From the UHGV virus genome UHGV-0004901: a stretch of 38,194 nucleotides of DNA; one strand, given 5' to 3'. Under the pieces are notes generated by a model, which was given only the letters and a program-made list of their open reading frames with translations, had not been told where the DNA came from and ran no database searches. The stretch comes from a virus. Position numbers and translations under genes: made by a program. This document shows positions 5,292 to 34,789 of this stretch, piece by piece. Within the stretch, counting starts at the first letter, position 1. Each line of letters starts with the position of its first letter.

Positions 5292-5876
5292 TTATTGTTT
5301 GTTTTTTTCGTTCTGGTTGATGACAAATTCAATGTAACTTTCGATCTTTGCTTTCTCGGTTTCGGGTAACAATGCGTAGCGCGAGCGATCATAGTTGATG
5401 GTCGCAGGGTCGTGCGGGTGAATCAGTAATTCATAGCCGTGACGCCCGAATGCGGATGCAACATTCTCCAGGGTGGAAATGGAAACGCTGACCTCATTGT
5501 TTAACAGGCGGCTGATTGTCACCTGGGCGACGCCGGATGCGCGGTGTAGTTTTCCCTGCGTTGAAAGGTCGCGGCTTTCGCTCATCCAGCGTTCCAGGTT
5601 GTGAGCCGCCAGCTGACCTATATCACTCGGGCCGACAGGCTGAAAACCTTCCTGAGAAAGCGAGCGATCGATATCAAGCCAGTTACGGGGTTTATTGGCG
5701 GCAGCTTCAATTTTTCGCGCAACCTGGTCGCCGATAACCTTCTTGCCAAGAGCCCAGCGGTTTACCAGATTTGCCTGAGTTCCAAGTTTTTCTGCCATCC
5801 GCGTCTGAACACCATTGAATTCACGGTCGATCAAGTCGTTGAGATTTTGCCTGCGGACGTCCTGGATACTTTTCAT
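5292..5876 (-). CDS. Immunity repressor (CI-like) with two HTH domains and no S24 peptidase domain
   Basis: 194 aa; two XRE-type HTH-like segments (…TRMAEKLGTQANLVNRWALGKK… and …ASGVAQVTISRLLNNE…); divergent from the Cro-like gene across an operator cluster. Confidence 0.7.
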   Translation of the reverse strand: MKSIQDVRRQNLNDLIDREFNGVQTRMAEKLGTQANLVNRWALGKKVIGDQVARKIEAAANKPRNWLDIDRSLSQEGFQPVGPSDIGQLAAHNLERWMSESRDLSTQGKLHRASGVAQVTISRLLNNEVSVSISTLENVASAFGRHGYELLIHPHDPATINYDRSRYALLPETEKAKIESYIEFVINQNEKNKQ

Positions 5877-5931
5877 TTTCTGGAAAATCGCCTCATATAT
5901 GAATCAGTAGATGATTCAATTTAAAGCAATA

Positions 5932-5994
5932 TTACCCAACAGGTAAATGCACCTCATAGGTAACTATCCTTGATTTTTGTTACCTTATGGGTGA
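5932..5994. promoter_or_regulatory. Immunity switch operators (OR-like): TTACCCAACAGGTAA (5932..5946), GCACCTCATAGGTAA (5949..5963), TTACCTTATGGGTGA (5980..5994)
   Basis: Three tandem 15-bp palindromic sites between the divergent repressor and Cro-like genes. Confidence 0.7.
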
Positions 5995-6030
5995 ATATTT
6001 ATTATCTGAAATAAATATCAGGCAATAGCT

Positions 6031-6261
6031 ATGAGCGATAACGGACATTTCGATTTCAAAAAGCACTGGCTTGCACTTACTCCGGATGAGCGTGAAGCCT
6101 TCGCACAGGAAGCCGGAACGACGAGTCACTATATCCAGACTCACTTAACAGGTAAGCGCAAAATGCCAGGTAAAGTATTGATGAATGGGCTTTTTAAAGC
6201 CTGTAAAACAAGACAATGGCTGCGCTTAAAAGCAGAACTGGCATACTTCTTCTACTCATGA
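6031..6261 (+). CDS. Cro-like small DNA-binding protein
   Basis: 76 aa, divergent from the repressor across the operator cluster; HTH-like segment LTPDEREAFAQEAGTTSHYIQTHLTGKR. Confidence 0.55.
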   Translation: MSDNGHFDFKKHWLALTPDEREAFAQEAGTTSHYIQTHLTGKRKMPGKVLMNGLFKACKTRQWLRLKAELAYFFYS

Positions 6262-6282
6262 TATCCAGCTACAACCCTCTGT

Positions 6283-6308
6283 AGACCGCCACCCGGCGGT
6301 CTTTTCAT
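6283..6308 (+). terminator. Rho-independent terminator after the Cro-like gene (tR1-like)
   Basis: GACCGCC-ACCC-GGCGGTC hairpin followed by TTTTC. Confidence 0.6.
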
Positions 6309-6316
6309 ATCTATTC

Positions 6317-6331
6317 GTACCTCAAAGGTAA
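6317..6331. promoter_or_regulatory. Operator-like palindrome GTACCTCAAAGGTAA downstream of the Cro terminator
   Basis: Direct reading. Confidence 0.45.
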
Positions 6332-6411
6332 TAAAAAACCAAATCTGGTTGATCTTTTTTTTGTGTCAGCACAAAATGACCGTAATCCCAATACTAATAA
6401 CAGGGCTTACC

Positions 6412-6612
6412 ATGGAAATCATTACACGTATTGATGCCGCAAAGCGCGGACTTAAACGCTACTACACCGGAAAAACATGTAAGCACGGACATGACAGTGA
6501 ACGCTGGGTTTACAACGGACACTGTGTTGAGTGCACCATGGAATCAAACCGTCGTATCAGGGCAGAGATTAAGCAGATCATGATTAATTCCTCCCCACAA
6601 CATTCAAGCTGA
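6412..6612 (+). CDS. Small Cys/His-rich protein in the cII position (hypothetical, possible zinc-binding)
   Basis: MEIITRIDAAKRGLKRYYTGKTCKHGHDSERWVYNGHCVEC...; start trimmed to ATG 6412. Confidence 0.4.
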   Translation: MEIITRIDAAKRGLKRYYTGKTCKHGHDSERWVYNGHCVECTMESNRRIRAEIKQIMINSSPQHSS

Positions 6613-6627
6613 TAGCGGAGATTAATC

Positions 6628-7467
6628 ATGAGCAGACATGCAACAGATTGGGCCTGGGAGACAGATCCAGGTAGCTCATCATTAAAGCTCATACTGCTCT
6701 CGATGGCTGACAGAGCCGATGAATATAACCTCTGCTACCCCAGCATAGAACGCCTCGTTAAAGACACTTGCCTGAATAAAAAAACCGTGCAGGCCGGGCT
6801 TATATCGCTCATGAAAATGGGGCTTATTTCAGATACCGGAGAGAGAAAGGGAGCGACAAAAAGAGTGCGGGTTTTCTCTCTTAATATAACCAAAAACGGG
6901 AACATTAAAGGCAACCGAGAGGGGGGCAATGAACCCGAAAACGGTAATGTTACCGAAAACGGGAATATACCCAAAAACGGGATGTTGAATGATCCCAAAA
7001 ACGGGATGTTGAATGATCCCAAAAACGGGATGTTGAATGATCCCAAAAACGGGATCCAGAACCAGTCATATAACCAGTCATTTAACCAAGAGAGGGAGAG
7101 CAGGACAAAAAACGGGGATTCTGTGCATCATGACCCCGGCGCAAACAACGCCGTGATGAATAACTTTGTTCCTCCTGGTGGGCCAGGGCAATTAGGCAAA
7201 TTTGTCATGCATGAACAATGGCAGCCATCAGATGACTTTCTTCGGAAAAGCTCATTGCAGGGGATCTACCTGGACAGTCTGCCAACGGCACAGGAACTTG
7301 CAGAGTTCAGAATTTACTGGATGGCTGAGGGTAAGGCATACCATCAGGCACAGTGGGAGCAGAAGCTGGCAAGGCGGCTGCAGATTAGCAGACAGAAGCA
7401 ATCAACATTACCTGATAACAACGTTCCGCACTGGAACAGCCCTGAAGCATGGGAGGATTTCTTGTGA
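6628..7467 (+). CDS. Replication initiator, lambda O-like (N-terminal winged-helix domain) with internal iterons
   Basis: N-terminal HTH-like domain; internal PKNGMLND repeats encoded by DNA iterons; followed by and overlapping a lambda P homolog. Confidence 0.75.
   Translation: MSRHATDWAWETDPGSSSLKLILLSMADRADEYNLCYPSIERLVKDTCLNKKTVQAGLISLMKMGLISDTGERKGATKRVRVFSLNITKNGNIKGNREGGNEPENGNVTENGNIPKNGMLNDPKNGMLNDPKNGMLNDPKNGIQNQSYNQSFNQERESRTKNGDSVHHDPGANNAVMNNFVPPGGPGQLGKFVMHEQWQPSDDFLRKSSLQGIYLDSLPTAQELAEFRIYWMAEGKAYHQAQWEQKLARRLQISRQKQSTLPDNNVPHWNSPEAWEDFL
6890..7060. repeat. Iteron array (putative origin of replication): 7 copies of CC(C/G)AAAACGG(G/T)A at 18-24 bp spacing, including 3 perfect 24-bp tandem copies
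   Basis: AAAACGG cores at 6893, 6938, 6956, 6974, 6998, 7022, 7046; followed by a second short direct repeat AACCAGTCAT(A/T)TAACCA (7059..7090). Confidence 0.7.
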
Positions 7468-8249
7468 ACAACGTTTTTACCGCGATACAAAACCGTGACG
7501 GAGAAGCCCTTTCTCGCATGTCAGGTTATGAGCATCAGTACACCAACAATGACAACGTGGTGAACATGTCAGCAGAGAGGCTTGTTGATGCCCTTTTCAA
7601 ACAGCTGAAACAACTGTTTCCGGCGGCAGTGGTAACCAACCTGAAGACGCCAGAGCAGGAAGTCGCTGCAAAACAGCAGTGGATTGCTGCGTTTGCCGAA
7701 GGTGGGATCCGAACCCGTGAACAGGTTTCTGCTGGTATGCGCCACGCCCGCGCCAGTGAATCTCCGTTCTGGCCGTCGCCAGGGCAATTCATCAAGTGGT
7801 GCAAAGACAGCAAGATGGTTCTTGGCGTCACCATTGACGATGTGATGGCGGAGTTTCACCGGTACAGCAAGGAAAAAAGTTTATATCCTGGTAGTCCCGA
7901 AAGATTCCCGTGGCGACATCCGGTTATGTACTGGGTCGTATGTGATACCCGCCGTGCAATGTATCAGCGCCAGCTTAGCGAGATTGAGGTTGAGAAACAT
8001 GCGCGCAGGCTGCTCGATGATTGGGCGAAAAAGGTGGCTTCTGGACAGCAGATACCCGATCCGGTGATCAGCATACAGGCAAAGCCAGAGCCCATGAGTA
8101 CACCTCCGGACACAGGGAGAGACGTTTACCATCCACCAGGGCGAAGTTTCGGATGCATGCCTAACGCCGCCACCCTTGGGGGAATAACACCGGCGCAGTG
8201 GCTGATGGAGGAATACAGGCGAGGAAAGGCGGCAGGATTTATCAAGTAA
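7449..8249 (+). CDS. Replication protein P-like (DnaB helicase loader)
   Basis: Clear similarity to lambda P recalled from memory: ...FPAAVVTNLKTPEQEVAAKQQWIAAFAEGGIRTREQVSAGMRHARASESPFWPSPGQFIKWCKD... versus lambda ...FPASL...RRQWVLAFRENGITTMEQVNAGMRVARRQNRPFLPSPGQFVAWCRE. Confidence 0.85.
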   Translation: MGGFLVNNVFTAIQNRDGEALSRMSGYEHQYTNNDNVVNMSAERLVDALFKQLKQLFPAAVVTNLKTPEQEVAAKQQWIAAFAEGGIRTREQVSAGMRHARASESPFWPSPGQFIKWCKDSKMVLGVTIDDVMAEFHRYSKEKSLYPGSPERFPWRHPVMYWVVCDTRRAMYQRQLSEIEVEKHARRLLDDWAKKVASGQQIPDPVISIQAKPEPMSTPPDTGRDVYHPPGRSFGCMPNAATLGGITPAQWLMEEYRRGKAAGFIK

Positions 8250-8286
8250 TACCAGCGCGATAGCGCATTTTTTTACGCTCAAATAA

Positions 8287-8363
8287 TTACCCATCAGGTA
8301 ATAAAATATTCTAAACTCTATTGATTTCGTGTCTTATGTGGTTTTTAATTACCTCAGAGGTAA
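8287..8363. promoter_or_regulatory. Operator pair TTACCCATCAGGTAA (8287..8301) and TTACCTCAGAGGTAA (8349..8363), 62 bp centre to centre; the second overlaps the SD of the downstream gene
   Basis: Direct reading; same 62-bp spacing as the OL pair. Confidence 0.55.
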
Positions 8364-8366
8364 ATC

Positions 8367-8711
8367 ATGAGAAAACAGATGCAGGCTCTTGGTCGACTCA
8401 AAACAGGCCAGATGAACAAAACAGAATCTGCGTATTGCCAGCATCTTGAGCAGCGTAAACGTGCAGGGGAAATCGCCTGGTATCGATTCGAGGGTATCAA
8501 GCTGCGGTTAGCTGATAACACGTTCTATACGCCAGATTTCGCTGTGATGCTCGCCACCGGAGAGATGGAACTGCACGAAGTGAAAGGTTTCTGGACCGAC
8601 GACGCCAGGGTGAAAACCAAAGTCGCCGCAGATCAGTATCCGTTCCGAATCATCGGGGTAACGGTTAAGCCAAAGAAAGCAGGTGGCGGATGGAAAATCG
8701 AAGAGTTCTGA
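8367..8711 (+). CDS. Small PD-(D/E)XK-like protein (DUF1064-like; possible nuclease/resolvase)
   Basis: 114 aa; ...YTPDFAVMLATGEMELHEVKG... fits a PD...E.K motif; family assignment from memory only. Confidence 0.45.
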   Translation: MRKQMQALGRLKTGQMNKTESAYCQHLEQRKRAGEIAWYRFEGIKLRLADNTFYTPDFAVMLATGEMELHEVKGFWTDDARVKTKVAADQYPFRIIGVTVKPKKAGGGWKIEEF

Positions 8712-8772
8712 ATCGACGATCTTTTTAGTTATCAATGTTATCAATAAGTTATGTGGATAAGCGAGGGTAAAG

Positions 8773-9252
8773 ATGGAAAGTAATATCAAAGGGTTAGTTG
8801 CCGCCGGGCATGAGATGGCTTCGGAACTGAAAGCAGAATGTGGTGCCGTTGATATGCGTAGTGTGGCAAAGCTGATCAGCGATTTGGCAACGCAACTGGA
8901 AGTGCAACTGGTGCGTGCTAATGCGCTGGCGGCGGAGAATGCGGGGCTGAAGTCTGGCGCTATGGACGAAATCAAGGTTATCAACCGTGGAGGGCAGGCA
9001 TATTGCGTAAAAGATGGAGTGCAAGTTAATCCCATGTATGCAAGAGGGTGGAATGACTATCGCGCAAAGTCTCTGCAATCAGACACCCCAGCCACCGATG
9101 CTTTCCTGGCTGAAATTGAACGCAAAGCAATCCGCAAGTTCATTAACAGCATTGAACACATCCTGCGTGACAAGTTGTCACCGTATGACACCGAAGAGAT
9201 GCTTGAGGCTATGCGTATTTTTCTGGAAGAACAGGGAGGTGAGCAAAAATGA
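8773..9252 (+). CDS. Hypothetical protein (nin-like region)
   Basis: 159-aa ORF with SD; no recognisable motif. Confidence 0.5.
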   Translation: MESNIKGLVAAGHEMASELKAECGAVDMRSVAKLISDLATQLEVQLVRANALAAENAGLKSGAMDEIKVINRGGQAYCVKDGVQVNPMYARGWNDYRAKSLQSDTPATDAFLAEIERKAIRKFINSIEHILRDKLSPYDTEEMLEAMRIFLEEQGGEQK

Positions 9253-9551
9253 CAATCACAAAACAACGAGTAGAAAAAATCATATATCGCCATGAAATGG
9301 GACTGAACAGCGATGTCACCGCCGAAGAGGTTTATGACCTGGCTGTACTGGCGCTGAATTTATCAAATATCGCAAACCTGAAGCGATACGAGCTTGATAT
9401 GGATGGTTGTGACTCGTTCGGTCAGGATTGTGGCGCTGACATGACTGAAGATCCTGATGGCGATTATGTCCTGTTTGATGACGTGGTTAAGTTGTTTGAG
9501 TTTGATACATTCGAAAGCCCAGCAAGGGAGACAACCAGTGAGCAAGATTGA
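9249..9551 (+). CDS. Hypothetical protein, acidic C-terminus
   Basis: 100-aa ORF; start overlaps the upstream stop (ATGA). Confidence 0.45.
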   Translation: MTITKQRVEKIIYRHEMGLNSDVTAEEVYDLAVLALNLSNIANLKRYELDMDGCDSFGQDCGADMTEDPDGDYVLFDDVVKLFEFDTFESPARETTSEQD

Positions 9552-9936: not shown

Positions 9937-9937
9937 G

Positions 9938-10345
9938 ATGACCACTATTACCAAAGAGCGACTGCTGACAATCAAGCAGTGGCGCGAAACATACGGACCG
10001 GGTAGCAACGTTGTACTGCCAGCAGAAGAAGCGGAAGAACTGGCACGAATTGCACTGGTATCGCTGGAAGCAGAGCCGGTGGCAAAGATTATAGCTCATT
10101 ACCCATTAGGAGTTGACGTAGGCAAACAAAAGTTCGTACAGGCCATTGGAGAGCTTCCTGACTTTGGCGGATATCTATTTGCCGCCCCGCCAGCGCCGGT
10201 AGTGCCGGAAGAAGCAACTCCGGAAAACGTAGAAATGCTCTCTGGCTATGTTTCCACGTACAAATTAACCGATAGCGAGCGCGATATTGCTGCCGAAATA
10301 TGGAACGCCTGCCGCGCCGCTATGCTTCATGGGAAAGGAGAGTGA
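9938..10345 (+). CDS. Hypothetical protein, paralog of the 10621 gene (shared MTTITKER N-terminus)
   Basis: 135 aa; conserved junction AAAGGAGAGTGAGATG. Confidence 0.5.
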   Translation: MTTITKERLLTIKQWRETYGPGSNVVLPAEEAEELARIALVSLEAEPVAKIIAHYPLGVDVGKQKFVQAIGELPDFGGYLFAAPPAPVVPEEATPENVEMLSGYVSTYKLTDSERDIAAEIWNACRAAMLHGKGE

Positions 10346-10346
10346 T

Positions 10347-10610
10347 ATGGCAACTTTAACAAAAAAAGAACGGGCATGGTTGAACGAATTACAGGACGTT
10401 CTTGATCGCTGCCCATCACCGAAAAAAATTGGTTTTTACACCATTGGCGATAAAAGCATTTACCTGTATGACCTGCGCCGCATGGATGAAATCATGGAGG
10501 CTCTTGATAATCGTTCGTCAATGGATTGGTGTGTTGCTGTCCATGATATGAATGCAGGGTTTGATGAAAAGATTTTGTTCCCCTCATCAGTTGAAAGCAC
10601 TGCGGGTTAA
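10347..10610 (+). CDS. Hypothetical protein
   Basis: Start at ATG 10347 after conserved junction AAAGGAGAGTGATATG; track ORF trimmed. Confidence 0.45.
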   Translation: MATLTKKERAWLNELQDVLDRCPSPKKIGFYTIGDKSIYLYDLRRMDEIMEALDNRSSMDWCVAVHDMNAGFDEKILFPSSVESTAG

Positions 10611-10620
10611 GGAGTAACAC

Positions 10621-14709: not shown

Positions 14710-14786
14710 TGGCGTGGCATGCAGGATTCGAACCTGCGACCAACCGCTTAGAAGGCGGTTGCTCTGTCCAACTGAGCTAATGCCAC
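14710..14786 (-). tRNA. tRNA-Arg, anticodon UCU (decodes AGA), phage-encoded
   Basis: Folded by hand: 7-bp acceptor stem GUGGCAU/AUGCCAC, D-arm GCUC..GAGC, anticodon stem ACCGC/GCGGU with loop CUUCUAA, T-arm GCAGG-UUCGAAU-CCUGC, discriminator G and encoded CCA. Confidence 0.85.
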
Positions 14787-28403: not shown

Positions 28404-30952
28404 TGGCAGCAAACGAATTTTTGACGCAGTGCGAGCGCAGTGTAAATGCTGCCGCTGGTCGCGAGCTTTCTTCCGATGAGATGGAGTCGCTGGTGCGTGA
28501 CATGAACGACACCACTAGGCGAATTCTGGCGACCAATGAGGCGCTGTCTCTGGAAGAGGCCGCGATGCGCGCAGCGGAAGAACTGAGCAATACCGATATG
28601 CTGGCAAAACAGATTGAGGCTCGCAATAAGGCAATCAACACCCGTATTGCAGCACAACGACTTAGAGAGCTTCGTACTATCTGGAAAGACCGCCCGGATA
28701 TCGGGCTTGAAGCAATGCTGGTTGGCCGCAACGATGCGCGTACCGGCGCCCGCCGGTCGGTATCTTCGGAGGTGGCGCAACTGCGCGGCAAGTATCATTC
28801 CGGTATCAACTACGATTTTGACCGTGCCGGGCTAGTGCAATTCATCGCCAGCGGCAGCAATGACAGGGAAATTGCCGATGCAATGTGGCGCATAGGGCGC
28901 GGGCAGTCAACTGACGGTATGACAAAGCAATCCGTAAGCGCTGCACAAATCATCATGAAATGGCAGGAAACTGCGCGCATTGATGAGAACCGCGCCGGGG
29001 CATGGATACGCAAAGAGCCGGGCTATATAGTGCGCCAGTCACACGATATCATGAAGATCCGCGCCGCAGGTTATGAAGCATGGCGAAATGCTATTCTCCC
29101 GCGCCTTGATGAGCGCACTTTTGACGGCGTGGCTGACCGCGAGCAGTTCATGCATAACATTTATAACGGGCTGGCTTCCGGCGTGCATCTTACATCTGAA
29201 AAGCCAGATTGGATGAATGGCTTTAAGGGATCGGCGAACGCAGCTAAACGCGCCAGCCAAGAGCGAATTTTGCACTTCAAAGATGGTATCTCGTGGCACG
29301 AGTACAACCAGCAATTCGGCACCGGCAGCCTGCGAGAGGCGCTGTTTGGTGGCTTAAACAGCGCTGCCCGCACAACGGGCATGATGCGCGTACTGGGCAC
29401 TAACCCACAGAACATGTTTAAGTACCTGACGGACACCATTGCTGAAGATATCAGCAAATCCGGAAGACCGGCAGCGTTAGCTGACTACATGACGAAGGTG
29501 CGTCGCATTAACCGTACCGTAATGCCGCAGGTTGACGGCTCGCTAAATATTCCTGGCAGCGTAGGCTGGGCCAATGCGTCGGCGGCTGTACGCGGCTGGT
29601 TGCGTATGAGCCAGCTTGGTGGCGCGGTAATCTCATCGTTTAACGACGTGCCTATCGCCGCTACCGAGATGCGCTACCAAGGGCAGAATTTTATGCAGGC
29701 GTTGCTTGGTGCTATGAGAGGCCGCTTCACGCGTTACAACAGCGCGGAGCAGAAAGAGATCCTTTCCTCTATCGGAGTTTATTCCGACTCCATGACGCAG
29801 GAAATCATCCGGCGCATATCTGGTGATGACACGCTGAATGGAAAACTTGGTCGCGCGCAGCAGCTTTTCTTTAAGTACAACCTCATGAACTTCTGGACCG
29901 AGAGCGGTCGTAACAGCAACGCCATGATGATAACCAACTGGCTTGCAAAGAATGCTGACCAGTCTCATGCGCGGCTACCGGAAGACCTGCGACGCGTGCT
30001 GGATCTGCACGGTATTGGCGAACGTGAGTGGGAAATTTTTCGCAACATGGACATGGCCGATAGCGAAGGTCGTAAGTTCATGACGACCAGCGGCATGCGC
30101 GGCGTGCCTGACGAAGTGATTGCCGGTTATGTAGAGAGTAAGGGGATCAAACCAACGCAGCGCGCTATCGCTGACGCACGCGATCAATTGGAAGGGCAGT
30201 TGCGCGGCTACATCCTTGACCGCCTGAATATCGCCATGTCAGAGCCTGGCGATCGCACGCAGGCGTTTATGAAGATGGGCACGGTGCCAGGAACGGTGGC
30301 TGGGGAAGCAATACGATTCGCTGGTCAGTACAAATCGTTCACTGCAAGCTTCATGCAGAACGTACTAGGACGCGAAGTATTCGGGCGTGGTTATATTCCT
30401 GCTGGGCTTGGTGAGTCGAAAACCGGATCGCTGACGAATGCGCTGCTACGTAACGGGAAGGGGGCTTTCCTTGGTGCTGCAAACCTCTTTGTCTGGGCGA
30501 CTATGTTTGGTTATATCTCCATGCAGTCAAAACTCATGCTGAAAGGGCAAACACCACGCCCGGCAGATGCCAAGACGTTTCTCGCAGCCGCATCTCAGGG
30601 GGGCGGTCTTGGCATCTTGGGTGACTTCATGTTTGGCGAGGTCAACCGCATGGGGGCCGGGCCGGTTACGTCGCTAATGGGACCGGCTGCATCGAACGCT
30701 GACAGCATTATCACGCTGCTCCAGCAGACCACGAGGGGGGATGCAGATTTGGGTGACTGGTATCGCACGGCACTTGACAATACGCCATTCCTCAACGTGT
30801 TCTGGCTTCGTACGGCGATGAATGGTTTAATATTGAACCGGATACAAGATGCCCTTGACCCAGGCTCTCTTGAGCGTTATCAGCGCCGTGTTGAGCGTGA
30901 ACAGGGTAACGACTTTCTGATCCCACCATCGCAGTTCATGCTAGGGAAGTAA
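28403..30952 (+). CDS. Internal virion/ejection protein (putative)
   Basis: Start at ATG 28403, overlapping the upstream stop (TGATG); position. Confidence 0.55.
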   Translation: MAANEFLTQCERSVNAAAGRELSSDEMESLVRDMNDTTRRILATNEALSLEEAAMRAAEELSNTDMLAKQIEARNKAINTRIAAQRLRELRTIWKDRPDIGLEAMLVGRNDARTGARRSVSSEVAQLRGKYHSGINYDFDRAGLVQFIASGSNDREIADAMWRIGRGQSTDGMTKQSVSAAQIIMKWQETARIDENRAGAWIRKEPGYIVRQSHDIMKIRAAGYEAWRNAILPRLDERTFDGVADREQFMHNIYNGLASGVHLTSEKPDWMNGFKGSANAAKRASQERILHFKDGISWHEYNQQFGTGSLREALFGGLNSAARTTGMMRVLGTNPQNMFKYLTDTIAEDISKSGRPAALADYMTKVRRINRTVMPQVDGSLNIPGSVGWANASAAVRGWLRMSQLGGAVISSFNDVPIAATEMRYQGQNFMQALLGAMRGRFTRYNSAEQKEILSSIGVYSDSMTQEIIRRISGDDTLNGKLGRAQQLFFKYNLMNFWTESGRNSNAMMITNWLAKNADQSHARLPEDLRRVLDLHGIGEREWEIFRNMDMADSEGRKFMTTSGMRGVPDEVIAGYVESKGIKPTQRAIADARDQLEGQLRGYILDRLNIAMSEPGDRTQAFMKMGTVPGTVAGEAIRFAGQYKSFTASFMQNVLGREVFGRGYIPAGLGESKTGSLTNALLRNGKGAFLGAANLFVWATMFGYISMQSKLMLKGQTPRPADAKTFLAAASQGGGLGILGDFMFGEVNRMGAGPVTSLMGPAASNADSIITLLQQTTRGDADLGDWYRTALDNTPFLNVFWLRTAMNGLILNRIQDALDPGSLERYQRRVEREQGNDFLIPPSQFMLGK

Positions 30953-30953
30953 T

Positions 30954-31325
30954 ATGAACAGAATTATATTAATGATTATTCTTATGCTTTTAGTTGTAAA
31001 ATCTTTTGCAGATACTACCTCACCGTTAATGATTCAGCCTAAAAATGGGGAAACACTGGAGGATTCTAAAAAGCATACAATGGAATATTTTGGATGTATA
31101 AAAGGGCAGGTCGTAAAATACGCTAAGACAGGAGAAAGTGTTGATTCTATATCCAAAGCTTCGGTTGTGTCATGCGAGTCGTACATACAAAAGATTGCTG
31201 AATCAAATATATACTATTTAAATTCCTCTCAAGACGGTAAGCGGAAATTTATTGGAAGGCTTAAATCAGATGGTGAAAATTTAGCAACGAAATTTGCTAT
31301 GGATGAAAAGCTAAAAAATAAATAG
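30954..31325 (+). CDS. Secreted/periplasmic protein with signal peptide (moron, about 33% GC)
   Basis: N-terminal MNRIILMIILMLLVVKSFA signal peptide; two Cys in the mature part; very AT-rich compared with about 52% GC for the flanking virion genes. Confidence 0.55.
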   Translation: MNRIILMIILMLLVVKSFADTTSPLMIQPKNGETLEDSKKHTMEYFGCIKGQVVKYAKTGESVDSISKASVVSCESYIQKIAESNIYYLNSSQDGKRKFIGRLKSDGENLATKFAMDEKLKNK

Positions 31326-31333
31326 GTGACTAC

Positions 31334-31630
31334 ATGCAAGCGATAGGATTCATTGTTTATATCGTCGTTGGTCTTTTTCAGTTGGCAGCAATTATGGCTG
31401 GGCTTGAATCATGGTGGGGATTGCACTGGATAATTGCAGCCCCCATTGCTTTCATCGTGAGCTATATTCCATTTGTTGGAGCGATTGTTGGTATGGTTGG
31501 CGCTGTGGATGTATGGCGGTGGGAGTGGTGGCAGGCTGGCCTTCTCTTCTTTGGTGGGATCATCTTTGCTATTGTCTGCGGTGGAATGTCATCATTTTTC
31601 GAATGGCTATCATTCAGAAAAGGAACGTGA
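31334..31630 (+). CDS. Small integral membrane protein (3-4 predicted TM segments); candidate holin or exclusion protein
   Basis: 98 aa, hydrophobic throughout, Trp-rich loops; stop codon embedded in a GTGACATGTCAC palindrome. Confidence 0.5.
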   Translation: MQAIGFIVYIVVGLFQLAAIMAGLESWWGLHWIIAAPIAFIVSYIPFVGAIVGMVGAVDVWRWEWWQAGLLFFGGIIFAIVCGGMSSFFEWLSFRKGT

Positions 31631-31638
31631 CATGTCAC
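31627..31638. repeat. 12-bp perfect palindrome GTGACATGTCAC (copy 3 of 3)
   Basis: Direct reading; overlaps the TGA stop of the 31334..31630 gene in the same register as copy 1. Confidence 0.8.
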
Positions 31639-31663
31639 AGGCCGCTTTCGCGGCCTTGTTTTT
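31639..31663 (+). terminator. Rho-independent terminator ending the late/moron transcript
   Basis: AGGCCGC-TTTC-GCGGCCT hairpin followed by TGTTTTT. Confidence 0.7.
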
Positions 31664-31823
31664 AACGAATGCCACCGCCGCCCGGGCGGGAATCCGCAGA
31701 ACGCCCACCGCAGCGGGAGCCGTCAGCGGCAGTATCGCTGTCGTGCTGACAACGACCGGCAAAGGCCTGAGTTGAAGCTACCAGAGACAACAAAACGAAC
31801 AGTGCAGCAAATGCTTTTTTCAT
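31662..31823 (-). CDS. Small protein with Sec-type signal peptide (53 aa), speculative
   Basis: MKKAFAALFVLLSLVASTQAFA then a 31-aa Gly/Arg/Cys-containing tail; possible promoter TTGACG-16-TATAGA upstream; weak SD. Confidence 0.3.
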   Translation of the reverse strand: MKKAFAALFVLLSLVASTQAFAGRCQHDSDTAADGSRCGGRSADSRPGGGGIR

Positions 31824-31894
31824 TGTGACATTTCCATCTATAAGCCACCTCAATGTGGCGTCAATGAGTGTAGCACTGACTTTTGTTTCGTCCA

Positions 31895-31917
31895 CAAAAA
31901 AGCCCTCGCCGCGGGCT
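31895..31917 (-). terminator. Rho-independent terminator after the 31917..32456 gene
   Basis: Minus-strand AGCCC-GCGGCGA-GGGCT hairpin followed by a T6 run. Confidence 0.6.
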
Positions 31918-32456
31918 TACCAAAACTTGTACCACGGGGATTTATCCTTCAATGGACAATCCTTCCATCGTGTGGCTAACCATTCATATTCTTTAAAATA
32001 TGTGTTTATGTTTTCTTTTTCTCTAATAGCTTGTATAAGAGGTAGCGCAATCTGATAGTTATTTACAACGGAGCTGTAAAATACTTCCTTAATCATGGTC
32101 TCATCATAAGTTTTCCGCTTCACGCTCACAGCCATGCGTTCGTAGAAACCTAGACAGTAAATTATTTCTCTCTTCTCTATCTTTTCTTCATCCGTAAGAT
32201 CAGCCTGCCCATTGCTTGGATACATATAAGAGCGGAATGATTTGTTCGACTCGTGAATGCGGCGCATAGTAGATAGGCCTTTCTTATAATCTACATCAAA
32301 CCTGCTTTCACCAAGGAATACTGAAGTGTGTACTTTTCTCGCTGTATTTACATTATAAATAATAGTAGCGATAGCTATGAACAAGCCAAGCGAAACCGCG
32401 ACTGCACTTACGATTTGAGCCACAGCCATGGCAAATTGCATTTCTTCACTTAACAC
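31917..32456 (-). CDS. Membrane-anchored protein of unknown function (single N-terminal TM, about 36% GC); candidate superinfection-exclusion/defence protein
   Basis: GTG start with SD GGAG; TM segment AMAVAQIVSAVAVSLGLFIAIATII; AT-rich; occupies the position held by sieA in P22-type genomes. Confidence 0.55.
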   Translation of the reverse strand: MLSEEMQFAMAVAQIVSAVAVSLGLFIAIATIIYNVNTARKVHTSVFLGESRFDVDYKKGLSTMRRIHESNKSFRSYMYPSNGQADLTDEEKIEKREIIYCLGFYERMAVSVKRKTYDETMIKEVFYSSVVNNYQIALPLIQAIREKENINTYFKEYEWLATRWKDCPLKDKSPWYKFW

Positions 32457-32474
32457 AAACTGTCTCCAGACATG

Positions 32475-32496
32475 AAAACGGGGCCTAATGGCCCCG
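32475..32496 (-). terminator. Hairpin/terminator between the antirepressor gene and the 31917..32456 gene
   Basis: Minus-strand ACGGGGCC-ATTA-GGCCCCGT hairpin followed by TTTT. Confidence 0.5.
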
Positions 32497-32585
32497 TCAT
32501 TAAACTATCCGAATGTTAAACGCCTTCGTACTCGTCAAATTTTCTCATGTGGGCTCCTCCTGTATCGGTGCCTAATCGCTATGGA

Positions 32586-32600
32586 TCACCCGTAAGGTAA
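32586..32600. promoter_or_regulatory. Operator-like palindrome TCACCCGTAAGGTAA
   Basis: Direct reading. Confidence 0.45.
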
Positions 32601-32672
32601 TAGTACTCTATTCACCACCCTGTCTGCAATCGTACAGAATTATTTAAAAGCACATCCATGTGCCACCGCCCG

Positions 32673-33383
32673 TCAGAAGAACCCTGCCTTGTCGTTGATG
32701 TATTCCGCGTGCGTCTGGATATCACGCAGGCATTTGCTCACACCGACGATGTAGCAGAACATGGTGGTCAGCTCCGCCGCCGCGCCCGATACGTCGTGCC
32801 CGTCTTCCTGTAACTGGTTCAGCAGATTCATCAGCAGTGAGTTCTCCGTCAGGCCGAGAACACCAGACGGCGAGTGAATCAGGCTGCGGTAGCCGGGCTT
32901 CAGCGGGGCGCTGTAGGTTTTGTTCTCTATCTTCATTGCCTGCATCACTGCTGATGCTGTGGCGTTTGCAACCTGGTCGGCAACCATCTTTATGCGTTCT
33001 TCCTGCGGGAGCGAGTTTTTAATGTAACTTCCGGTGCGGCGGATCTGAGGAAGAACCTCACCTGTAACCCATTTACGAAAGCGGTAGGGGATAGTGCCTG
33101 GTGTCACTGCGTCGCGGCAGCGGAGGATCAGTGTGTAGAGGCCTGACTCGGAGATGATGTTGATCTCTTTTACTCGGCTGTCAAAAATTGCACGATGTTC
33201 ATGCCCTATGTTGAACATAGACCTTTCATCATCATCCAGTTTTTCAAGTGCTTGGGTGACGTTTTGGATACGCAGCGCACTACAAACGTCTTGGGCTACA
33301 AACCATGGTTGGCCATCGATAATGATGGAACGGATAGGGTTAACAGATTCAAATTTGAAGATGGCAGTTTGAGCATTAGCCAT
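32673..33383 (-). CDS. ant: Antirepressor with Bro-N/KilA-N-type N-terminal domain
   Basis: ...FESVNPIRSIIIDGQPWFVAQDVCSALRIQN...GLYTLILRCRDA... matches Bro-N; start at ATG 33383 with SD GGAG. Confidence 0.8.
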   Translation of the reverse strand: MANAQTAIFKFESVNPIRSIIIDGQPWFVAQDVCSALRIQNVTQALEKLDDDERSMFNIGHEHRAIFDSRVKEINIISESGLYTLILRCRDAVTPGTIPYRFRKWVTGEVLPQIRRTGSYIKNSLPQEERIKMVADQVANATASAVMQAMKIENKTYSAPLKPGYRSLIHSPSGVLGLTENSLLMNLLNQLQEDGHDVSGAAAELTTMFCYIVGVSKCLRDIQTHAEYINDKAGFF

Positions 33384-33652
33384 GGTGGTTATCTCCACTT
33401 AGTGATTTTAATCACCACCGCAACGCCAATTACTGGTGGTGAACTGGACAAGGTTGGCGTACCGGCCTAAGTGGTACCGGCGTCCTTTCGGACCCCTGCC
33501 CAGCCCACCATAATTCGGATATAGCTGTGCTTAACGCATAAAAAAACCACGTCTGGCGTGGTATGCGCCACTTAGTAACTCGGGACGCCAATCCCGGCAC
33601 TGGATTTTGCCAGTACCCGATTACTATGGCACAAGAGGAGTGCGATGTAAAT

Positions 33653-33760
33653 TTACCGCAAAGGTAATGATAAACGCGAAGAAATATTAAAATCAACCGT
33701 ATTTGGTTGGTTGCGTTTAACGCTTGATCACCTGAAAGCAAGATATTACCTTTAAGGTAA
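33653..33760. promoter_or_regulatory. Two operator palindromes in the divergent ant / 33781 promoter region: TTACCGCAAAGGTAA (33653..33667) and TTACCTTTAAGGTAA (33746..33760)
   Basis: Direct reading. Confidence 0.55.
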
Positions 33761-33780
33761 TGTTATTGTGAGGAAAAGCA

Positions 33781-34509
33781 ATGGAAGTTTTCTGGATAGT
33801 TGTTGGTGTGGTTGCGGTGATTATTTATGTTATCAACCAGAACAAGACTAAGATCTCTGATCGTACGGTCGTTAATCATAACAAAACGATAAAGACCGAA
33901 GATGGGGAGATAACGATTAATCGTACACAGGTGATAGAACACACCTCTACTCAGTTTCAAAAAACTGGAGGTAATGCGCCTAATATTTCCGCACCTCCTG
34001 CTTATGATAGTGCGGTAATCCAGACATATTATAAACAGCAGGAGTTAGCAAAAGAGAGGCAACTGATTCAGCCAAAGCCGTTTACAGCTGAGCTTCCACC
34101 TGGAGTGTCAACGCGTCCGGCATATCATGGAAGATTCCCTGGTGATGACATATCGTCTCAGTCATCTAAAAAAGCACCTCAGGCAGTATCAGAGCCAGCA
34201 AGAATACCTTCTGTATCGCCGCCAAAAGAAGAATCAGCTAACAGAGTTTCAAGTGGTAGCAAGCAGTGCTTGCGATGCAGAATAAACCTACCATATGAAA
34301 AATTCAGGAAATCGTCAAAAAATCCAGATGGATTGACTAAGTGGTGTGCAAGGTGTCTCGATGGCCCAAAGAATACACGCCATATGAAGTGGTGCCCAAT
34401 TTGTAATGTCCGCAGAAAACGAACCAGCTTTTACCCTAATAATCAAAATGCGGACGGATTAATGGCATGGTGCAAAACGTGCTGGGATGAGCACAAAGCG
34501 AAACGATAG
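33781..34509 (+). CDS. Membrane-anchored protein with two tandem CxxC...DGLxxWCxxC zinc-ribbon-like repeats (unknown function)
   Basis: N-terminal TM MEVFWIVVGVVAVIIYVI; C-terminal repeats CLRCRINLPYEKFRKSSKNPDGLTKWCARC and CPICNVRRKRTSFYPNNQNADGLMAWCKTC. Confidence 0.6.
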   Translation: MEVFWIVVGVVAVIIYVINQNKTKISDRTVVNHNKTIKTEDGEITINRTQVIEHTSTQFQKTGGNAPNISAPPAYDSAVIQTYYKQQELAKERQLIQPKPFTAELPPGVSTRPAYHGRFPGDDISSQSSKKAPQAVSEPARIPSVSPPKEESANRVSSGSKQCLRCRINLPYEKFRKSSKNPDGLTKWCARCLDGPKNTRHMKWCPICNVRRKRTSFYPNNQNADGLMAWCKTCWDEHKAKR

Positions 34510-34533
34510 GCCGCTCTTGCGGCCTTTAAATTT
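34509..34533. terminator. Hairpin/terminator between convergent genes
   Basis: GGCCGC-TCTT-GCGGCC followed by TTTAAATTT. Confidence 0.5.
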
Positions 34534-34789
34534 ACCGGGTTTGTTTTCGTAATTGTTCGGCACAATAGTCGAGATGTGTTTGCAGATCCCGCATAGACAT
34601 CTGTGACCTGGTGACGTAGTTAATCAGTGCAGTCAGTTCGGCAAGTGGGCCATCGACATTAAATCCATCCTTATCGAGATCCCGGAGTAATTTCATCAAG
34701 TGCGATCCCTCCACCAGTGATCTGACGCCTCCCGGCGTGTGAATCCTTTCGGTAAATCCGTCTTCCAGTGGATAGTGATACTGCTGCAT
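34532..34789 (-). CDS. Antirepressor C-terminal-domain paralog (85 aa, stand-alone)
   Basis: ...GGVRSLVEGSHLMKLLRDLDKDGFNVDGPLAELTALINYV...RDLQTH... aligns by eye with the Ant C-terminus ...SGVLGLTENSLLMNLLNQLQEDGHDVSGAAAELTTMFCYI...RDIQTH...; strong SD GGAGAAG before ATG 34789. Confidence 0.5.
   Translation of the reverse strand: MQQYHYPLEDGFTERIHTPGGVRSLVEGSHLMKLLRDLDKDGFNVDGPLAELTALINYVTRSQMSMRDLQTHLDYCAEQLRKQTR

What the first reader, a model, noticed from the sequence alone, without database searches (positions are those of the whole stretch)
5292..34789. Antirepressor-based induction circuit: uncleavable dual-HTH repressor, Bro-N antirepressor and a stand-alone Ant C-domain paralog
The immunity repressor has two HTH domains and no recognisable LexA/S24-type autocleavage domain, so RecA-mediated cleavage is unlikely. 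A full Bro-N antirepressor (32673..33383) lies 27 kb away in the P22-immI-like position, behind a roughly 380-bp leader carrying two of the operators. A second 85-aa gene (34532..34789) encodes only the Ant C-terminal domain. It could act as a decoy, a dominant-negative modulator or a second-specificity antirepressor.
Basis: inference. Interest (0 to 1): 0.6.

Follow-up and report, generated by a model that had tools for sequence, protein, structure and literature searches.

The report
Two antirepressors controlling one prophage repressor
This E. coli prophage carries the already characterised SPC32H-type non-cleavable repressor and its small SOS-controlled antirepressor, plus a second antirepressor gated by an antisense RNA that reuses the same repressor-binding domain, so the core circuit is known and only the doubled arrangement is a modest new twist.

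Summary
The window is an epsilon15/phiV10-like (Uetakevirus) E. coli prophage.

- **Repressor (5292..5876).** It is a homologue of the SPC32H Rep (PDB 5D50_A, E 4e-42) and has no S24 domain.
- **The 85-aa protein (34532..34789).** It is not a decoy. It is the orthologue (about 85% identity, E 7e-46) of the solved SPC32H antirepressor Ant. A near-consensus LexA box (18/20) overlaps its promoter, as in SPC32H.
- **The Bro-N protein (32673..33383).** It carries a paralogous Ant domain at its C-terminus (43% identity, E 3e-20) and is the accessory antirepressor.
- **Its "leader".** This is a P1-immI/Gifsy-1-type RNA cassette. A promoter abutted by a Rep-type palindrome is followed by an isrK (a1b1) RNA with a terminator, then a C4 antisense RNA. 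C4 targets then overlap the gene's ribosome-binding site. C4 loops and their targets covary across 11 phage loci.
- **Experimental support.** In phage ZX5 the Rep is identical. There a Bro-N protein whose C-terminal two-thirds, Ant domain included, are identical to the window's lowered lysogeny 1000-fold when overexpressed.

The window therefore combines two known kinds of antirepressor control on one effector domain. It is a new member of known kinds, of moderate interest.

The parts
5292..5876 (-). rep: non-cleavable SPC32H-type repressor (N-terminal DNA-binding domain, middle dimerisation domain, C-terminal tetramerisation/Ant-binding domain)
   Evidence: PDB 5D50_A, E 4e-42, over residues 1-190. 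No S24 domain. 100% identical to phiV10/ZX5 Rep and 42% to SPC32H Rep. Domain names from PMC9986798.
5932..5994 (.). Rep-type palindromes TTACC-N5-GGTAA in the rep-cro intergenic region (5932..5946 and 5980..5994)
   Evidence: The same motif is conserved in the rep-cro regions of SPC32H, Tyrion and a Klebsiella phage. Assignment as the Rep operator is an inference.
5158..5234 (.). Pair of palindromes 62 bp apart flanking a leftward TTGACA -35 box just below rep
   Evidence: The same 62-63 bp pair occurs in L013-L015.
34532..34789 (-). ant: small stand-alone antirepressor (85 aa), orthologue of SPC32H Ant
   Evidence: PDB 5D50_E, E 7e-46, about 85% identity. Annotated 'ant: anti-repressor protein' in SPC32H at the same position next to the tailspike gene.
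34809..34828 (-). LexA box TACTGTATAAATATACAGTT (18/20 to consensus). Its left half forms a -10-like TACTGT hexamer placed 17 nt after a conserved TGGATA (34846..34851).
   Evidence: It is the only match in the window, with 0 expected in shuffles. It is conserved in six phages including SPC32H.
34866..34880 (.). Rep-type palindrome (one mismatch) about 35 bp upstream of the LexA box, conserved across the genus
   Evidence: Its role is unknown.
34508..34525 (.). Bidirectional terminator hairpin between the convergent ant and 242-aa genes
33781..34509 (+). 242-aa cargo gene (phrog_6762, with a C-terminal match to endonuclease VII / Lar-like families) inserted between ant and the isrK cassette
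   Evidence: The gene is absent at this place in phiV10, Tyrion, ZX5 and the annotated Klebsiella phage ST11-OXA245phi3.2, where ant and the cassette lie in tandem.
33746..33760 (.). Upstream perfect Rep-type palindrome, lying between the divergent 242-aa gene and the isrK promoter
33653..33667 (.). Perfect Rep-type palindrome abutting the -35 box of the isrK promoter
   Evidence: Its position (starting 51 nt before isrK in the window, 51-54 nt in the others) and the adjoining TTTACA-17-CATAGT promoter are conserved in Uetakevirus relatives. The palindrome is absent from non-Uetakevirus cassettes.
33623..33651 (-). Predicted promoter: TTTACA, 17 nt, then (TG)CATAGT. The predicted start of transcription coincides with the first base of isrK.
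33540..33616 (-). isrK-family RNA, which is the a1b1 target/decoy element for C4, ending in an intrinsic terminator (33546..33562 plus a U-run)
   Evidence: Rfam RF01394, 63.5 bits against a gathering score of 50. It contains UUGGCGU and CUAAGUGG, which are complementary to C4. RF03163 c4-a1b1 overlaps isrK in VT2-Sakai. Terminator.
33432..33515 (-). C4 antisense RNA
   Evidence: Rfam RF01695, 66 bits against a gathering score of 45. The fold exposes the loop ACCACUUAG and the single-stranded stretch ACGCCAA.
33395..33429 (-). a2 (33423..33429, UUGGCGU) and b2 (33395..33402, CUAAGUGG) targets of C4 in the 5'UTR. b2 overlaps the GGAG Shine-Dalgarno sequence of the Bro-N gene.
   Evidence: Compensatory covariation in 11 loci.
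32673..33383 (-). Bro-N::Ant-domain antirepressor (236 aa). Bro-N occupies residues 17-112 (33048..33335). The Ant-type C-domain occupies residues 155-231 (32691..32921).
   Evidence: Pfam Bro-N, E 1e-19. C-domain against 5D50_E, E 1.2e-13. 43% identity to the small Ant. The C-terminal two-thirds, from about residue 80, are identical to ZX5 ORF4, which lowered lysogeny when overexpressed (PMC9782041).

Best explanation
The prophage uses the SPC32H-type switch, with a second antirepressor layered on top of it.

**Primary switch.** Rep holds the lytic promoters shut through TTACC-N5-GGTAA operators and cannot be cleaved. DNA damage removes LexA from the box that overlaps the promoter of the small ant gene. 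The 85-aa Ant is then made. It binds the C-terminal tetramerisation domain of Rep, the Rep tetramer comes apart, and Rep leaves the DNA.

**Second antirepressor.** It has the same kind of Rep-binding domain, fused behind a Bro-N domain, and it is kept silent at two levels.
1. Its promoter is abutted by a Rep operator.
2. Its ribosome-binding site is masked by a C4 antisense RNA processed from the same transcript.

An upstream isrK RNA carries copies of the C4 targets and ends at a leaky terminator, so it can act as a decoy for C4.

**Consequences.** Once Rep is inactivated, or when the phage DNA enters a cell that lacks the matching C4 RNA, the Bro-N::Ant protein is produced. It then reinforces or spreads the loss of repression.

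**Status of each step.**
- Shown here by homology or sequence: the identities of Rep, Ant and the Ant domain; the LexA box; the two RNAs; the C4-target complementarity and its covariation.
- Shown by others in relatives: Ant-Rep binding and LexA control in SPC32H; the pro-lytic effect of the Bro-N protein in ZX5.
- Inferred: that the palindromes are Rep operators; that the fusion binds the cognate Rep; the feed-forward and anti-immunity roles.
For: - **Rep.** Homologous to 5D50_A over its whole length and has no S24 domain.
- **Small Ant.** About 85% identical to 5D50_E. It lies divergently from the tailspike gene, exactly as SPC32H ant does.
- **LexA box.** 18/20 to consensus, unique in the window with 0 expected, and conserved in six genus members including SPC32H.
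- **Published mechanism, via secondary sources.** LexA-controlled Ant in SPC32H (PMC7380047). Ant is a tetramer that breaks the Rep tetramer (PMC9638917). Ant binds the C-terminal tetramerisation domain of Rep (PMC9986798).
- **Fusion C-domain.** E 1.2e-13 to 5D50_E. 21 positions are invariant across both paralog lineages in 8 proteins.
- **Both paralogs persist.** They co-occur in the E. coli, Enterobacter and Klebsiella Uetakeviruses.
- **RNA cassette.** isrK and C4 both score above the Rfam gathering thresholds. The C4 loop and tail are complementary to sites in isrK and in the 5'UTR at the Shine-Dalgarno sequence. Cognate matches are mostly 8-9 nt and non-cognate matches mostly 4-6 nt, with compensatory changes in both the a and b elements. 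The leader RNA folds with z = -4.9.
- **Promoter.** The operator-abutted promoter is conserved in the genus.
- **Precedents.** P1 immI is C1-repressed and C4-gated (PMC8198154). In Gifsy-1, isrK controls anrP and AnrP induces the prophage (PMC4825925).
- **Experiment in ZX5.** Its Rep is identical, and its ORF4 is identical to the window's Bro-N protein over the C-terminal two-thirds (from about residue 80), Ant domain included. Overexpressing ORF4 reduced lysogens from 1e9 to 1e6.
Against: - No binding, LexA footprint or expression data exist for this phage itself.
- I could not read the two primary SPC32H papers. The Rep-Ant interface residues could therefore not be checked in the fusion domain.
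- The fusion domain is only about 40% identical to the small Ant.
- phiV10 carries a frameshift inside the fusion's Ant domain, so the fusion is dispensable for a viable phage.
- Salmonella relatives manage without the fusion.
- The ZX5 test was a GST-tagged overexpression, not a deletion.
- The AF2 model of the Ant domain was of low confidence.
- A Rep-type palindrome also sits upstream of the small ant gene. The simple model does not explain it.
Confidence: 0.75

Rival explanations
1. The Bro-N::Ant fusion plays no part in this prophage's own induction. It is an anti-immunity or cross-talk weapon. On infection it would inactivate the Rep of a resident related prophage whose C4 RNA does not match. 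From the lysogen it would co-induce other Rep-type prophages. The models are P1/P7 and P22 Ant, and Fels-1 FsoA.
For: - The E. coli Uetakeviruses share a 100% identical Rep but fall into at least two C4 specificities. The window and HEMP4 have ACCACUUAG. phiV10, TL-2011b and ZX5 have CCUUUUAG. This is the P1/P7 pattern.
- Fels-1 FsoA is repressor-controlled, is useless for Fels-1's own induction, and induces Gifsy-2 (PMC3121763).
- The fusion is dispensable in phiV10 and absent from the Salmonella relatives.
- A stand-alone copy of the fusion-type domain sits in a P4-like satellite. That fits a trans-acting use.
Against: This rival is not exclusive of the feed-forward role. No superinfection data exist. 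ZX5 ORF4 acted on its own phage's lysogenisation.
Confidence: 0.35
2. The Bro-N protein is the main antirepressor that drives induction. The 85-aa protein is a decoy, a dominant-negative modulator or a second-specificity fragment derived from it.
For: The two proteins are paralogous. Ant is oligomeric, so mixed oligomers are conceivable.
Against: - The 85-aa protein is the orthologue of the functional, crystallised SPC32H Ant.
- It alone carries the LexA box.
- It is the only Ant in SPC32H and epsilon15.
- It is the better conserved of the two: 84% against 79% in Tyrion, and about 60% against 53% in the Klebsiella phages.
Confidence: 0.03
3. The Bro-N::Ant protein is not an antirepressor of Rep. 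Its Ant-like C-domain would serve only as an oligomerisation module for a Bro-N DNA-binding regulator with another target. Alternatively the gene is decaying cargo.
For: - Bro-N is a putative DNA-binding domain of unclear function (PMC9782041).
- The phiV10 copy is frameshifted.
- The fusion domain is only about 40% identical to Ant.
- The interface residues could not be checked.
Against: - The C-domain keeps 21 invariant positions shared with the small Ants.
- It is found behind three different N-terminal domain types (Bro-N, AntA/B, ORF6N), always at the C-terminus. This marks it as the constant effector part.
- It sits behind the RNA cassette that controls an antirepressor in Gifsy-1 and precedes annotated antirepressor genes in VT2-Sakai and other phages; P1 immI uses the same c4 logic.
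- Overexpression in ZX5 was pro-lytic.
Confidence: 0.1

Closest known systems
Salmonella phage SPC32H Rep-Ant antirepression system (Kim & Ryu 2013; Kim et al. 2016; PDB 5D4Z and 5D50)
   Same: - Same genus.
- Rep is homologous over its full length.
- The small Ant is about 85% identical.
- ant lies divergently next to the tailspike gene.
- The LexA box, the promoter and an upstream palindrome are conserved.
- The same TTACC-N5-GGTAA motif occurs around rep.
   Different: - Rep is only 42% identical.
- SPC32H has no isrK/C4 cassette and no second Ant-domain protein.
Phage P1/P7 immI operon (c4 antisense RNA, icd, ant1/2)
   Same: - A promoter repressed by the primary repressor.
- a1b1 targets, then C4 RNA, then a2b2 targets at a ribosome-binding site, then an antirepressor of the primary repressor.
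- C4 specificity varies between phages through compensatory changes.
   Different: - There is no icd-like gene; C4 masks the antirepressor's own Shine-Dalgarno sequence.
- The antirepressor protein is not annotated or matched as a P1-type Ant: it is Bro-N plus an SPC32H-Ant domain. No direct comparison with P1 Ant1/2 was run.
- The repressor is Rep, not C1.
Gifsy-1 isrK-orf45-anrP locus together with the LexA-controlled GfoA
   Same: - An isrK RNA with a leaky terminator, a C4-like RNA (STnc1160) and a downstream antirepressor that induces the prophage.
- Gifsy-1 also has a separate small LexA-controlled antirepressor and a non-cleavable repressor. The two-logic combination therefore has a precedent.
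   Different: - In Gifsy-1 the two antirepressors have not been reported to share a domain; I ran no comparison. Here they are paralogs in the effector domain.
- The orf45 frame is cut to 14 codons in the window (read from the sequence).
- The repressors bear different names and the Gifsy-1 literature describes no relationship to Rep; I did not compare them here.
Escherichia phage vB_EcoP_ZX5 ORF4 'anti-repressor' (PMC9782041)
   Same: - Rep is 100% identical.
- ORF4's C-terminal two-thirds (from about residue 80), Ant-type domain included, are identical to the window protein.
- The same isrK/C4 cassette lies upstream.
   Different: - The N-terminal Bro-N part is mosaic (85% identity overall).
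- The C4 specificity differs (CCUUUUAG against ACCACUUAG).
- The paper recognised neither the small Ant, nor LexA, nor the RNAs.
P22 immI (mnt-arc-ant with sar RNA)
   Same: The antirepressor locus sits immediately upstream of the tailspike gene (from my own knowledge). The relative TL-2011b does carry Arc, sar RNA and an AntA/B-type Ant whose C-terminus is the same Ant-type domain.
   Different: The window has no Arc or Mnt, no sar RNA and no AntA/B domain.

Membership tests
SPC32H-type Rep/Ant antirepression system | Repressor homologous to SPC32H Rep (DNA-binding, dimerisation and tetramerisation domains), with no autocleavage domain | tested here: met
   5D50_A, E 4e-42, covering residues 1-190 of 194. 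No Peptidase_S24 in Pfam.
SPC32H-type Rep/Ant antirepression system | Small (about 86 aa) antirepressor homologous to SPC32H Ant | tested here: met
   5D50_E, E 7e-46, 83 aligned residues, about 85% identity.
SPC32H-type Rep/Ant antirepression system | LexA box overlapping the ant promoter | tested here: met
   TACTGTATAAATATACAGTT at 34809..34828, 18/20 to consensus, 0 expected by chance. It aligns with the SPC32H box. LexA binding itself was not tested.
SPC32H-type Rep/Ant antirepression system | Ant physically binds Rep and releases it from the operator | not testable with these tools
   Known only for SPC32H.
C4 antisense RNA-controlled antirepressor cassette (P1 immI / Gifsy-1 isrK-anrP) | C4 RNA scoring above the Rfam gathering score | tested here: met
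   RF01695, 66 bits against 45.
C4 antisense RNA-controlled antirepressor cassette (P1 immI / Gifsy-1 isrK-anrP) | Upstream a1b1 / isrK element carrying the C4 target sequences | tested here: met
   RF01394, 63.5 bits against 50. UUGGCGU and CUAAGUGG are present.
C4 antisense RNA-controlled antirepressor cassette (P1 immI / Gifsy-1 isrK-anrP) | Downstream a2b2 targets at the ribosome-binding site of the controlled gene, covarying with C4 | tested here: met
   b2 overlaps GGAG and ends 11 nt before the AUG. At least 7 b' specificities and 3 a' variants occur, with matching targets, in 11 loci.
C4 antisense RNA-controlled antirepressor cassette (P1 immI / Gifsy-1 isrK-anrP) | Intervening icd/orf45-type leader ORF translationally coupled to ant | tested here: not met
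   The frame that begins inside C4 stops after 14 codons (sequence). The Bro-N gene has its own Shine-Dalgarno sequence.
C4 antisense RNA-controlled antirepressor cassette (P1 immI / Gifsy-1 isrK-anrP) | Operon promoter repressed by the phage's primary repressor | tested here: inconclusive
   A perfect Rep-type palindrome abuts the -35 box and is conserved in the genus. Rep binding was not tested.
Bro-N / KilAC (COG3617-type) prophage antirepressors | N-terminal Bro-N domain | tested here: met
   PF02498, E 1e-19, residues 17-112.
Bro-N / KilAC (COG3617-type) prophage antirepressors | C-terminal ANT/KilAC domain | tested here: not met
   No Pfam hit on the C-terminal half. That half is instead homologous to SPC32H Ant.
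P22-type immI (Mnt/Arc/Ant/sar) | Arc/Mnt repressors, sar RNA, AntA/B-type Ant | tested here: not met
   No sar in the window. No Arc/Mnt or AntA/B domains in the neighbouring ORFs. Only the position next to the tailspike gene is shared.
Lambda CI/LexA-type cleavable repressors | Peptidase S24 autocleavage domain | tested here: not met

The most novel reading that the evidence does not exclude
The Ant-type C-domain is a portable module that disassembles Rep, and one phage lineage has placed it under independent regulatory cassettes.
- LexA controls the stand-alone Ant.
- Rep plus the C4/isrK RNAs control the Bro-N fusion.
- In TL-2011b, Arc/sar controls a third copy fused to an AntA/B domain.
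- P4-like satellites may also have captured it to derepress helper prophages.

In the window the two copies would form a two-stage switch. The SOS-made Ant opens the Rep-repressed promoter of the second copy, which locks in induction.

The C4 allele would also define a second immunity specificity among phages that share an identical Rep. This would be P1/P7-style heteroimmunity, which I have not seen described for podoviruses of this genus.
Probability: 0.4. Interest if true: 0.55.

Novelty: new member of a known kind. Interest (0 to 1): 0.35.

Why it matters
- **Annotation.** The small Ant has no Pfam or NCBIfam model. Its PHROG family (phrog_450) is labelled 'unknown function'. RefSeq calls it 'hypothetical protein'. 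About one complete E. coli genome in ten carries a match to this ant region. This includes relatives found in O157 and O103 EHEC strains. Their SOS-inducibility is therefore invisible to routine annotation.
- **Literature link.** The analysis connects two bodies of work that do not cite each other. One is the SPC32H structural work. The other is the ZX5 'Bro-N anti-repressor' study, which mentions neither SPC32H nor LexA.
- **A cheap experiment.** Phages with the same Rep but different C4 alleles should be partly heteroimmune.
- **Limits.** Conceptually, both control logics and their coexistence already have precedents: Gifsy-1 (GfoA plus AnrP) and P1 (Coi plus Ant). The gain is incremental.

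Tried and rejected
- **Primary papers.** I tried to read the SPC32H papers (PMC3807360, PMC4983836 and its DOI) and the epsilon15 genome paper (PMC2698709). None is held. The mechanism is therefore cited from secondary sources and from my memory of the abstracts. The Rep-Ant interface residues could not be mapped onto the fusion domain.
- **Structure prediction.** AlphaFold2 on the fusion with a 23-sequence alignment gave a usable Bro-N domain (pLDDT about 80). The Ant-type domain scored below 50. I did not run a fold search on it. The sequence match to 5D50_E is sufficient for homology.
- **Other protein libraries.** PADLOC gave nothing for the fusion or the neighbouring cargo genes. NCBIfam gave nothing useful for Rep, Ant or the fusion.
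- **Other LexA-like sites.** The two other CTGT-N8-ACAG matches (14579 and 19121) were rejected. They are GC-rich in the spacer and fail the full 20-mer search.
- **Alternative promoter.** TTGATT-18-TATCAT (33696..33667) was considered for the isrK cassette. I preferred TTTACA-17-CATAGT because its predicted start coincides with the first base of isrK and it is conserved across the genus.
- **Co-divergence test.** I asked whether Rep and Ant diverge together, as a test of specificity. Ant is 85% identical between the window and SPC32H although Rep is only 42% identical. Co-divergence is therefore not informative here.

Full report
**What the window is.**
- DNA searches place it among the epsilon15/phiV10-like temperate podoviruses (genus Uetakevirus) of E. 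coli.
- It is 100% identical to part of the chromosome of E. coli SW070919. Related ant regions occur in 535 of 5426 complete E. coli genomes.
- Gene order runs from an integrase at the left end, through rep/cro, replication, packaging and virion genes, to a tailspike at the right end.

**Checking the observation.**
- The 194-aa repressor has a Pfam HTH_3 hit at residues 106-147 and a weak HTH-like hit at 21-61. It has no Peptidase_S24 domain.
- The 236-aa protein has a Bro-N domain at residues 17-112.
- Its residues 155-228 align without gaps to the 85-aa protein at 43% identity, E 3e-20.
- The leader of the Bro-N gene holds two perfect TTACC-N5-GGTAA palindromes. This motif also marks the rep-cro intergenic region. 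It occurs 15 times in the window, against 0.56 expected.

**The repressor and the small protein are a known, solved pair.**
- A search of PDB sequences matched the repressor to chain A of 5D50, 'Repressor', over residues 1-190 (E 4e-42).
- The same search matched the 85-aa protein to chain E of the same entry, 'Anti-repressor protein', 86 aa (E 7e-46, about 85% identity).
- That entry is the Rep-Ant complex of Salmonella phage SPC32H, another Uetakevirus. In its GenBank record the gene at the same position, divergent from the tailspike gene, is annotated 'ant: anti-repressor protein'.
- I could not open the two primary papers. Papers that I could read summarise them as follows:
  - Induction depends on a LexA-controlled antirepressor (PMC7380047).
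  - Rep binds DNA as a tetramer, and a tetrameric Ant binds two Rep dimers and breaks the tetramer (PMC9638917).
  - Rep has an N-terminal DNA-binding domain, a middle dimerisation domain and a C-terminal tetramerisation domain that also binds Ant (PMC9986798).

**The LexA box.**
- The sequence TACTGTATAAATATACAGTT starts 19 nt upstream of the ATG of the 85-aa gene.
- It is the only match to the 20-mer LexA consensus in the window at up to three mismatches, with none in 100 shuffles.
- Aligned with phiV10, TL-2011b, Tyrion, a Klebsiella phage and SPC32H, four elements are conserved. These are the box, a TGGATA hexamer 17 nt before its TACTGT half, the Shine-Dalgarno sequence, and a Rep-type palindrome about 35 bp further upstream.
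- The longer 126-aa frame that some gene callers use (P0013) would start upstream of these signals. It is therefore wrong.
- The 85-aa protein is thus the primary SOS-responsive antirepressor. It is not a decoy derived from the Bro-N protein.
- The Salmonella members of the genus (SPC32H, SPN1S, epsilon15) have only this small Ant. The SPC32H locus, the only one of these checked with Rfam, contains no isrK or C4 RNA.

**The Bro-N protein is the accessory antirepressor, and its leader is an RNA control cassette.**
- Its C-terminal domain matches 5D50_E directly (E 1.2e-13).
- Rfam, at gathering thresholds, finds two RNAs in the leader. One is an isrK-family RNA at 33540..33616, ending in an intrinsic terminator. 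The other is a C4 antisense RNA at 33432..33515.
- C4 folds so that a hairpin loop (ACCACUUAG) and a single-stranded stretch (ACGCCAA) are exposed.
- Their complements, CUAAGUGG and UUGGCGU, occur twice. One pair lies inside isrK. The other lies in the 51-nt 5'UTR, where CUAAGUGG runs into the GGAG Shine-Dalgarno sequence of the Bro-N gene.
- This is the a1b1 - c4 - a2b2 layout of the P1/P7 immI operon. Rfam has a separate family for 'a1, b1 targets of C4', and it overlaps isrK in phage VT2-Sakai (the motif is listed in PMC2864571).

**Covariation of C4 with its targets.**
- I collected the cassette from ten other phages and compared the three elements.
- The C4 loop differs in sequence between phages, with at least seven variants.
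- In each phage both targets carry the matching change. Cognate exact matches are 8-9 nt in most loci. Three targets keep the pairing only through G-U wobbles. VT2-Sakai matches only 4-6 nt. Non-cognate matches are mostly 4-6 nt.
- The a element covaries as well, in Tyrion and in Kp4865-1.
- This is strong comparative evidence that the antisense pairing is functional and specific.
- The whole leader folds far better than shuffled controls (z = -4.9). The AUG also sits in a local hairpin.

**Promoter of the cassette.**
- A TTTACA-17-(TG)CATAGT promoter predicts a transcription start at the first base of isrK.
- In every Uetakevirus copy, a TTACC-N5-GGTAA palindrome sits one base upstream of the -35 box.
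- In cassettes from unrelated phages (Hafnia, Yersinia, Salmonella 118970_sal3, VT2-Sakai) the promoter is at the same place but the palindrome is absent.
- The same palindrome family surrounds rep in SPC32H, Tyrion and a Klebsiella phage, although their Reps are only 42-78% identical. The invariant NLVNRW stretch in the N-terminal domain fits a conserved DNA specificity.
- I therefore read the palindromes as Rep operators. This is an inference; nobody has tested it here.
That gene is inserted between ant and the cassette in the window, HEMP4 and TL-2011b. In phiV10, Tyrion, ZX5 and the Klebsiella phage ST11-OXA245phi3.2 the small ant, isrK, C4 and the Bro-N gene lie in tandem.

**Does the fusion act on the cognate Rep?** Three lines of evidence suggest that it does.
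1. Twenty-one positions are invariant across small Ants and fusion domains from E. coli, Enterobacter, Klebsiella and Salmonella phages.
2. The domain is the constant part of these proteins.
   - It lies at the extreme C-terminus behind Bro-N and AntA/B domains. E. coli genomes also carry an ORF6N-annotated protein at the same locus, whose C-terminus I did not check.
   - It also occurs alone.
   - The family is small, with 65 representatives at E <= 1e-3 among 1.84 billion proteins.
3. A published experiment exists in phage vB_EcoP_ZX5.
   - Its Rep is 100% identical to the window's.
   - The C-terminal two-thirds of its ORF4, from about residue 80 and including the Ant domain, are identical to the window protein.
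   - Overexpressed ORF4 lowered the prophage count after infection from 1e9 to 1e6 and reduced repressor transcripts by 75% (PMC9782041).
   - That paper noted only the Bro-N domain. It does not mention SPC32H or LexA (0 occurrences of either term), and its genome description names only ORF4, ORF12 and ORF21 as lysogeny-related.

Evidence against an essential role: phiV10 has a frameshift in the fusion's Ant domain, and the Salmonella phages lack the gene.

**How it most likely works.**
- In the lysogen, LexA keeps the small ant gene off. Rep keeps the cassette promoter low. Stable C4 RNA blocks whatever Bro-N mRNA is made.
- DNA damage removes LexA. Ant is made and takes the Rep tetramer off its operators.
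- The cassette promoter then opens. Each transcript brings one C4 but two target sets, and terminated isrK transcripts add further decoys. C4 is thus outnumbered and the Bro-N::Ant protein is translated.
- This gives either a feed-forward lock on induction or, on infection, an anti-immunity function against a resident phage whose C4 does not match.
- The decoy reading of isrK follows the P1 a1b1 concept. It is compatible with the Gifsy-1 data, in which excess IsrK switches on translation of the downstream antirepressor AnrP and AnrP induces the prophage (PMC4825925).
- Phages with identical Rep carry different C4 alleles. The window and HEMP4 differ from phiV10, TL-2011b and ZX5. This makes the anti-immunity role testable.

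**Comparison with what is known.**
- The Rep/Ant/LexA part belongs to the SPC32H system on every defining feature that I could test.
- The cassette belongs to the C4-controlled antirepressor class (P1 immI, Gifsy-1 isrK-anrP), except that it has no icd/orf45-type leader ORF.
- The protein is not a classical Bro-N/KilAC antirepressor, because the KilAC domain is replaced by the SPC32H-Ant domain.
- It is not a P22-type immI. The relative TL-2011b has, in addition, an Arc-sar-Ant module whose Ant ends in the same domain (89% identical).
- A LexA-controlled antirepressor and an isrK-controlled one already coexist in one prophage, Gifsy-1. P1 also has two antirepressors for C1.
- What I have not seen described is that both antirepressors share one effector domain, and that P1-style C4 specificities exist in this podovirus genus.

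**Verdict.**
- The finding is real, but its centrepiece is an already solved system with the roles reversed.
- It is a new member of known kinds, with one modestly new combinatorial feature.
- Interest: 0.35.

Noticed in passing
window 14710..14786 (-): A tRNA-Arg(TCT) gene lies on the minus strand between the terminase and portal genes (Rfam 73 bits; ARAGORN).
   Followed up: partly
window 5158/5220, 8287/8349, 11964/11982, 15109, 136, 6317, 32586: TTACC-N5-GGTAA palindromes are scattered through the genome. Two pairs lie exactly 62 bp apart on either side of a -35 box. The same 62-63 bp pair occurs below rep in SPC32H, Tyrion and a Klebsiella phage. This suggests that one Rep tetramer bridges two sites.
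   Followed up: partly
window 34866..34880: A Rep-type palindrome about 35 bp upstream of the LexA box of the small ant gene is conserved in all six genus members aligned, including SPC32H. Its role (Rep input on ant, or on the divergent tailspike gene) is unexplained.
   Followed up: partly
window 33781..34509 (+): A 242-aa gene (phrog_6762, unknown function, with C-terminal matches to endonuclease VII / Lar-like families) is inserted between ant and the isrK cassette. It has no PADLOC hit. 107 of 5426 complete E. coli genomes cover at least 80% of the 2.4-kb query that includes it.
   Followed up: partly
window 31917..32456 (-) and 32586..32600: A DUF4760 gene lies downstream of the Bro-N gene and has its own Rep-type palindrome. 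Its function is unknown and it has no PADLOC hit.
   Followed up: no
L001 (TL-2011b) 280..1464 and 451..518: TL-2011b carries an Arc-like repressor, a sar RNA (Rfam) and an AntA/B-type Ant. The last 92 residues of that Ant are 89% identical to the window's fusion domain, giving a third Ant-domain protein in one phage.
   Followed up: partly
L002 (phiV10) 2566..2837: The phiV10 Bro-N gene is frameshifted in the middle of its Ant-type domain, so the annotated protein is 194 aa. This is either a pseudogene or a sequencing error.
   Followed up: partly
L016-L018, gene at 10001..10288: A stand-alone 95-aa copy of the fusion-type Ant domain (P0134) sits at the edge of a P4-like satellite in contigs from metagenome and sequencing-run assemblies; the source names for P0134 are Raoultella/Klebsiella. 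The satellite carries primase/DUF927, Phage_ASH, AlpA and Bro-N genes. It may be a device that derepresses a helper prophage, like P4 epsilon.
   Followed up: no
L012 (ZX5) 2555..2668; L008 (yong2) 1282..1965: CDSs annotated 'Ash family protein' lie on top of the C4 RNA. In the window the same frame stops after 14 codons. These protein calls are probably artefacts of the RNA gene.
   Followed up: partly
window 34532..34912 (-): Many database entries call the small ant gene as 126-127 aa from an ATG upstream of the LexA box (for example P0013, 833 members). The family has no Pfam or NCBIfam model, and phrog_450 is labelled 'unknown function' although a crystal structure exists.
   Followed up: yes
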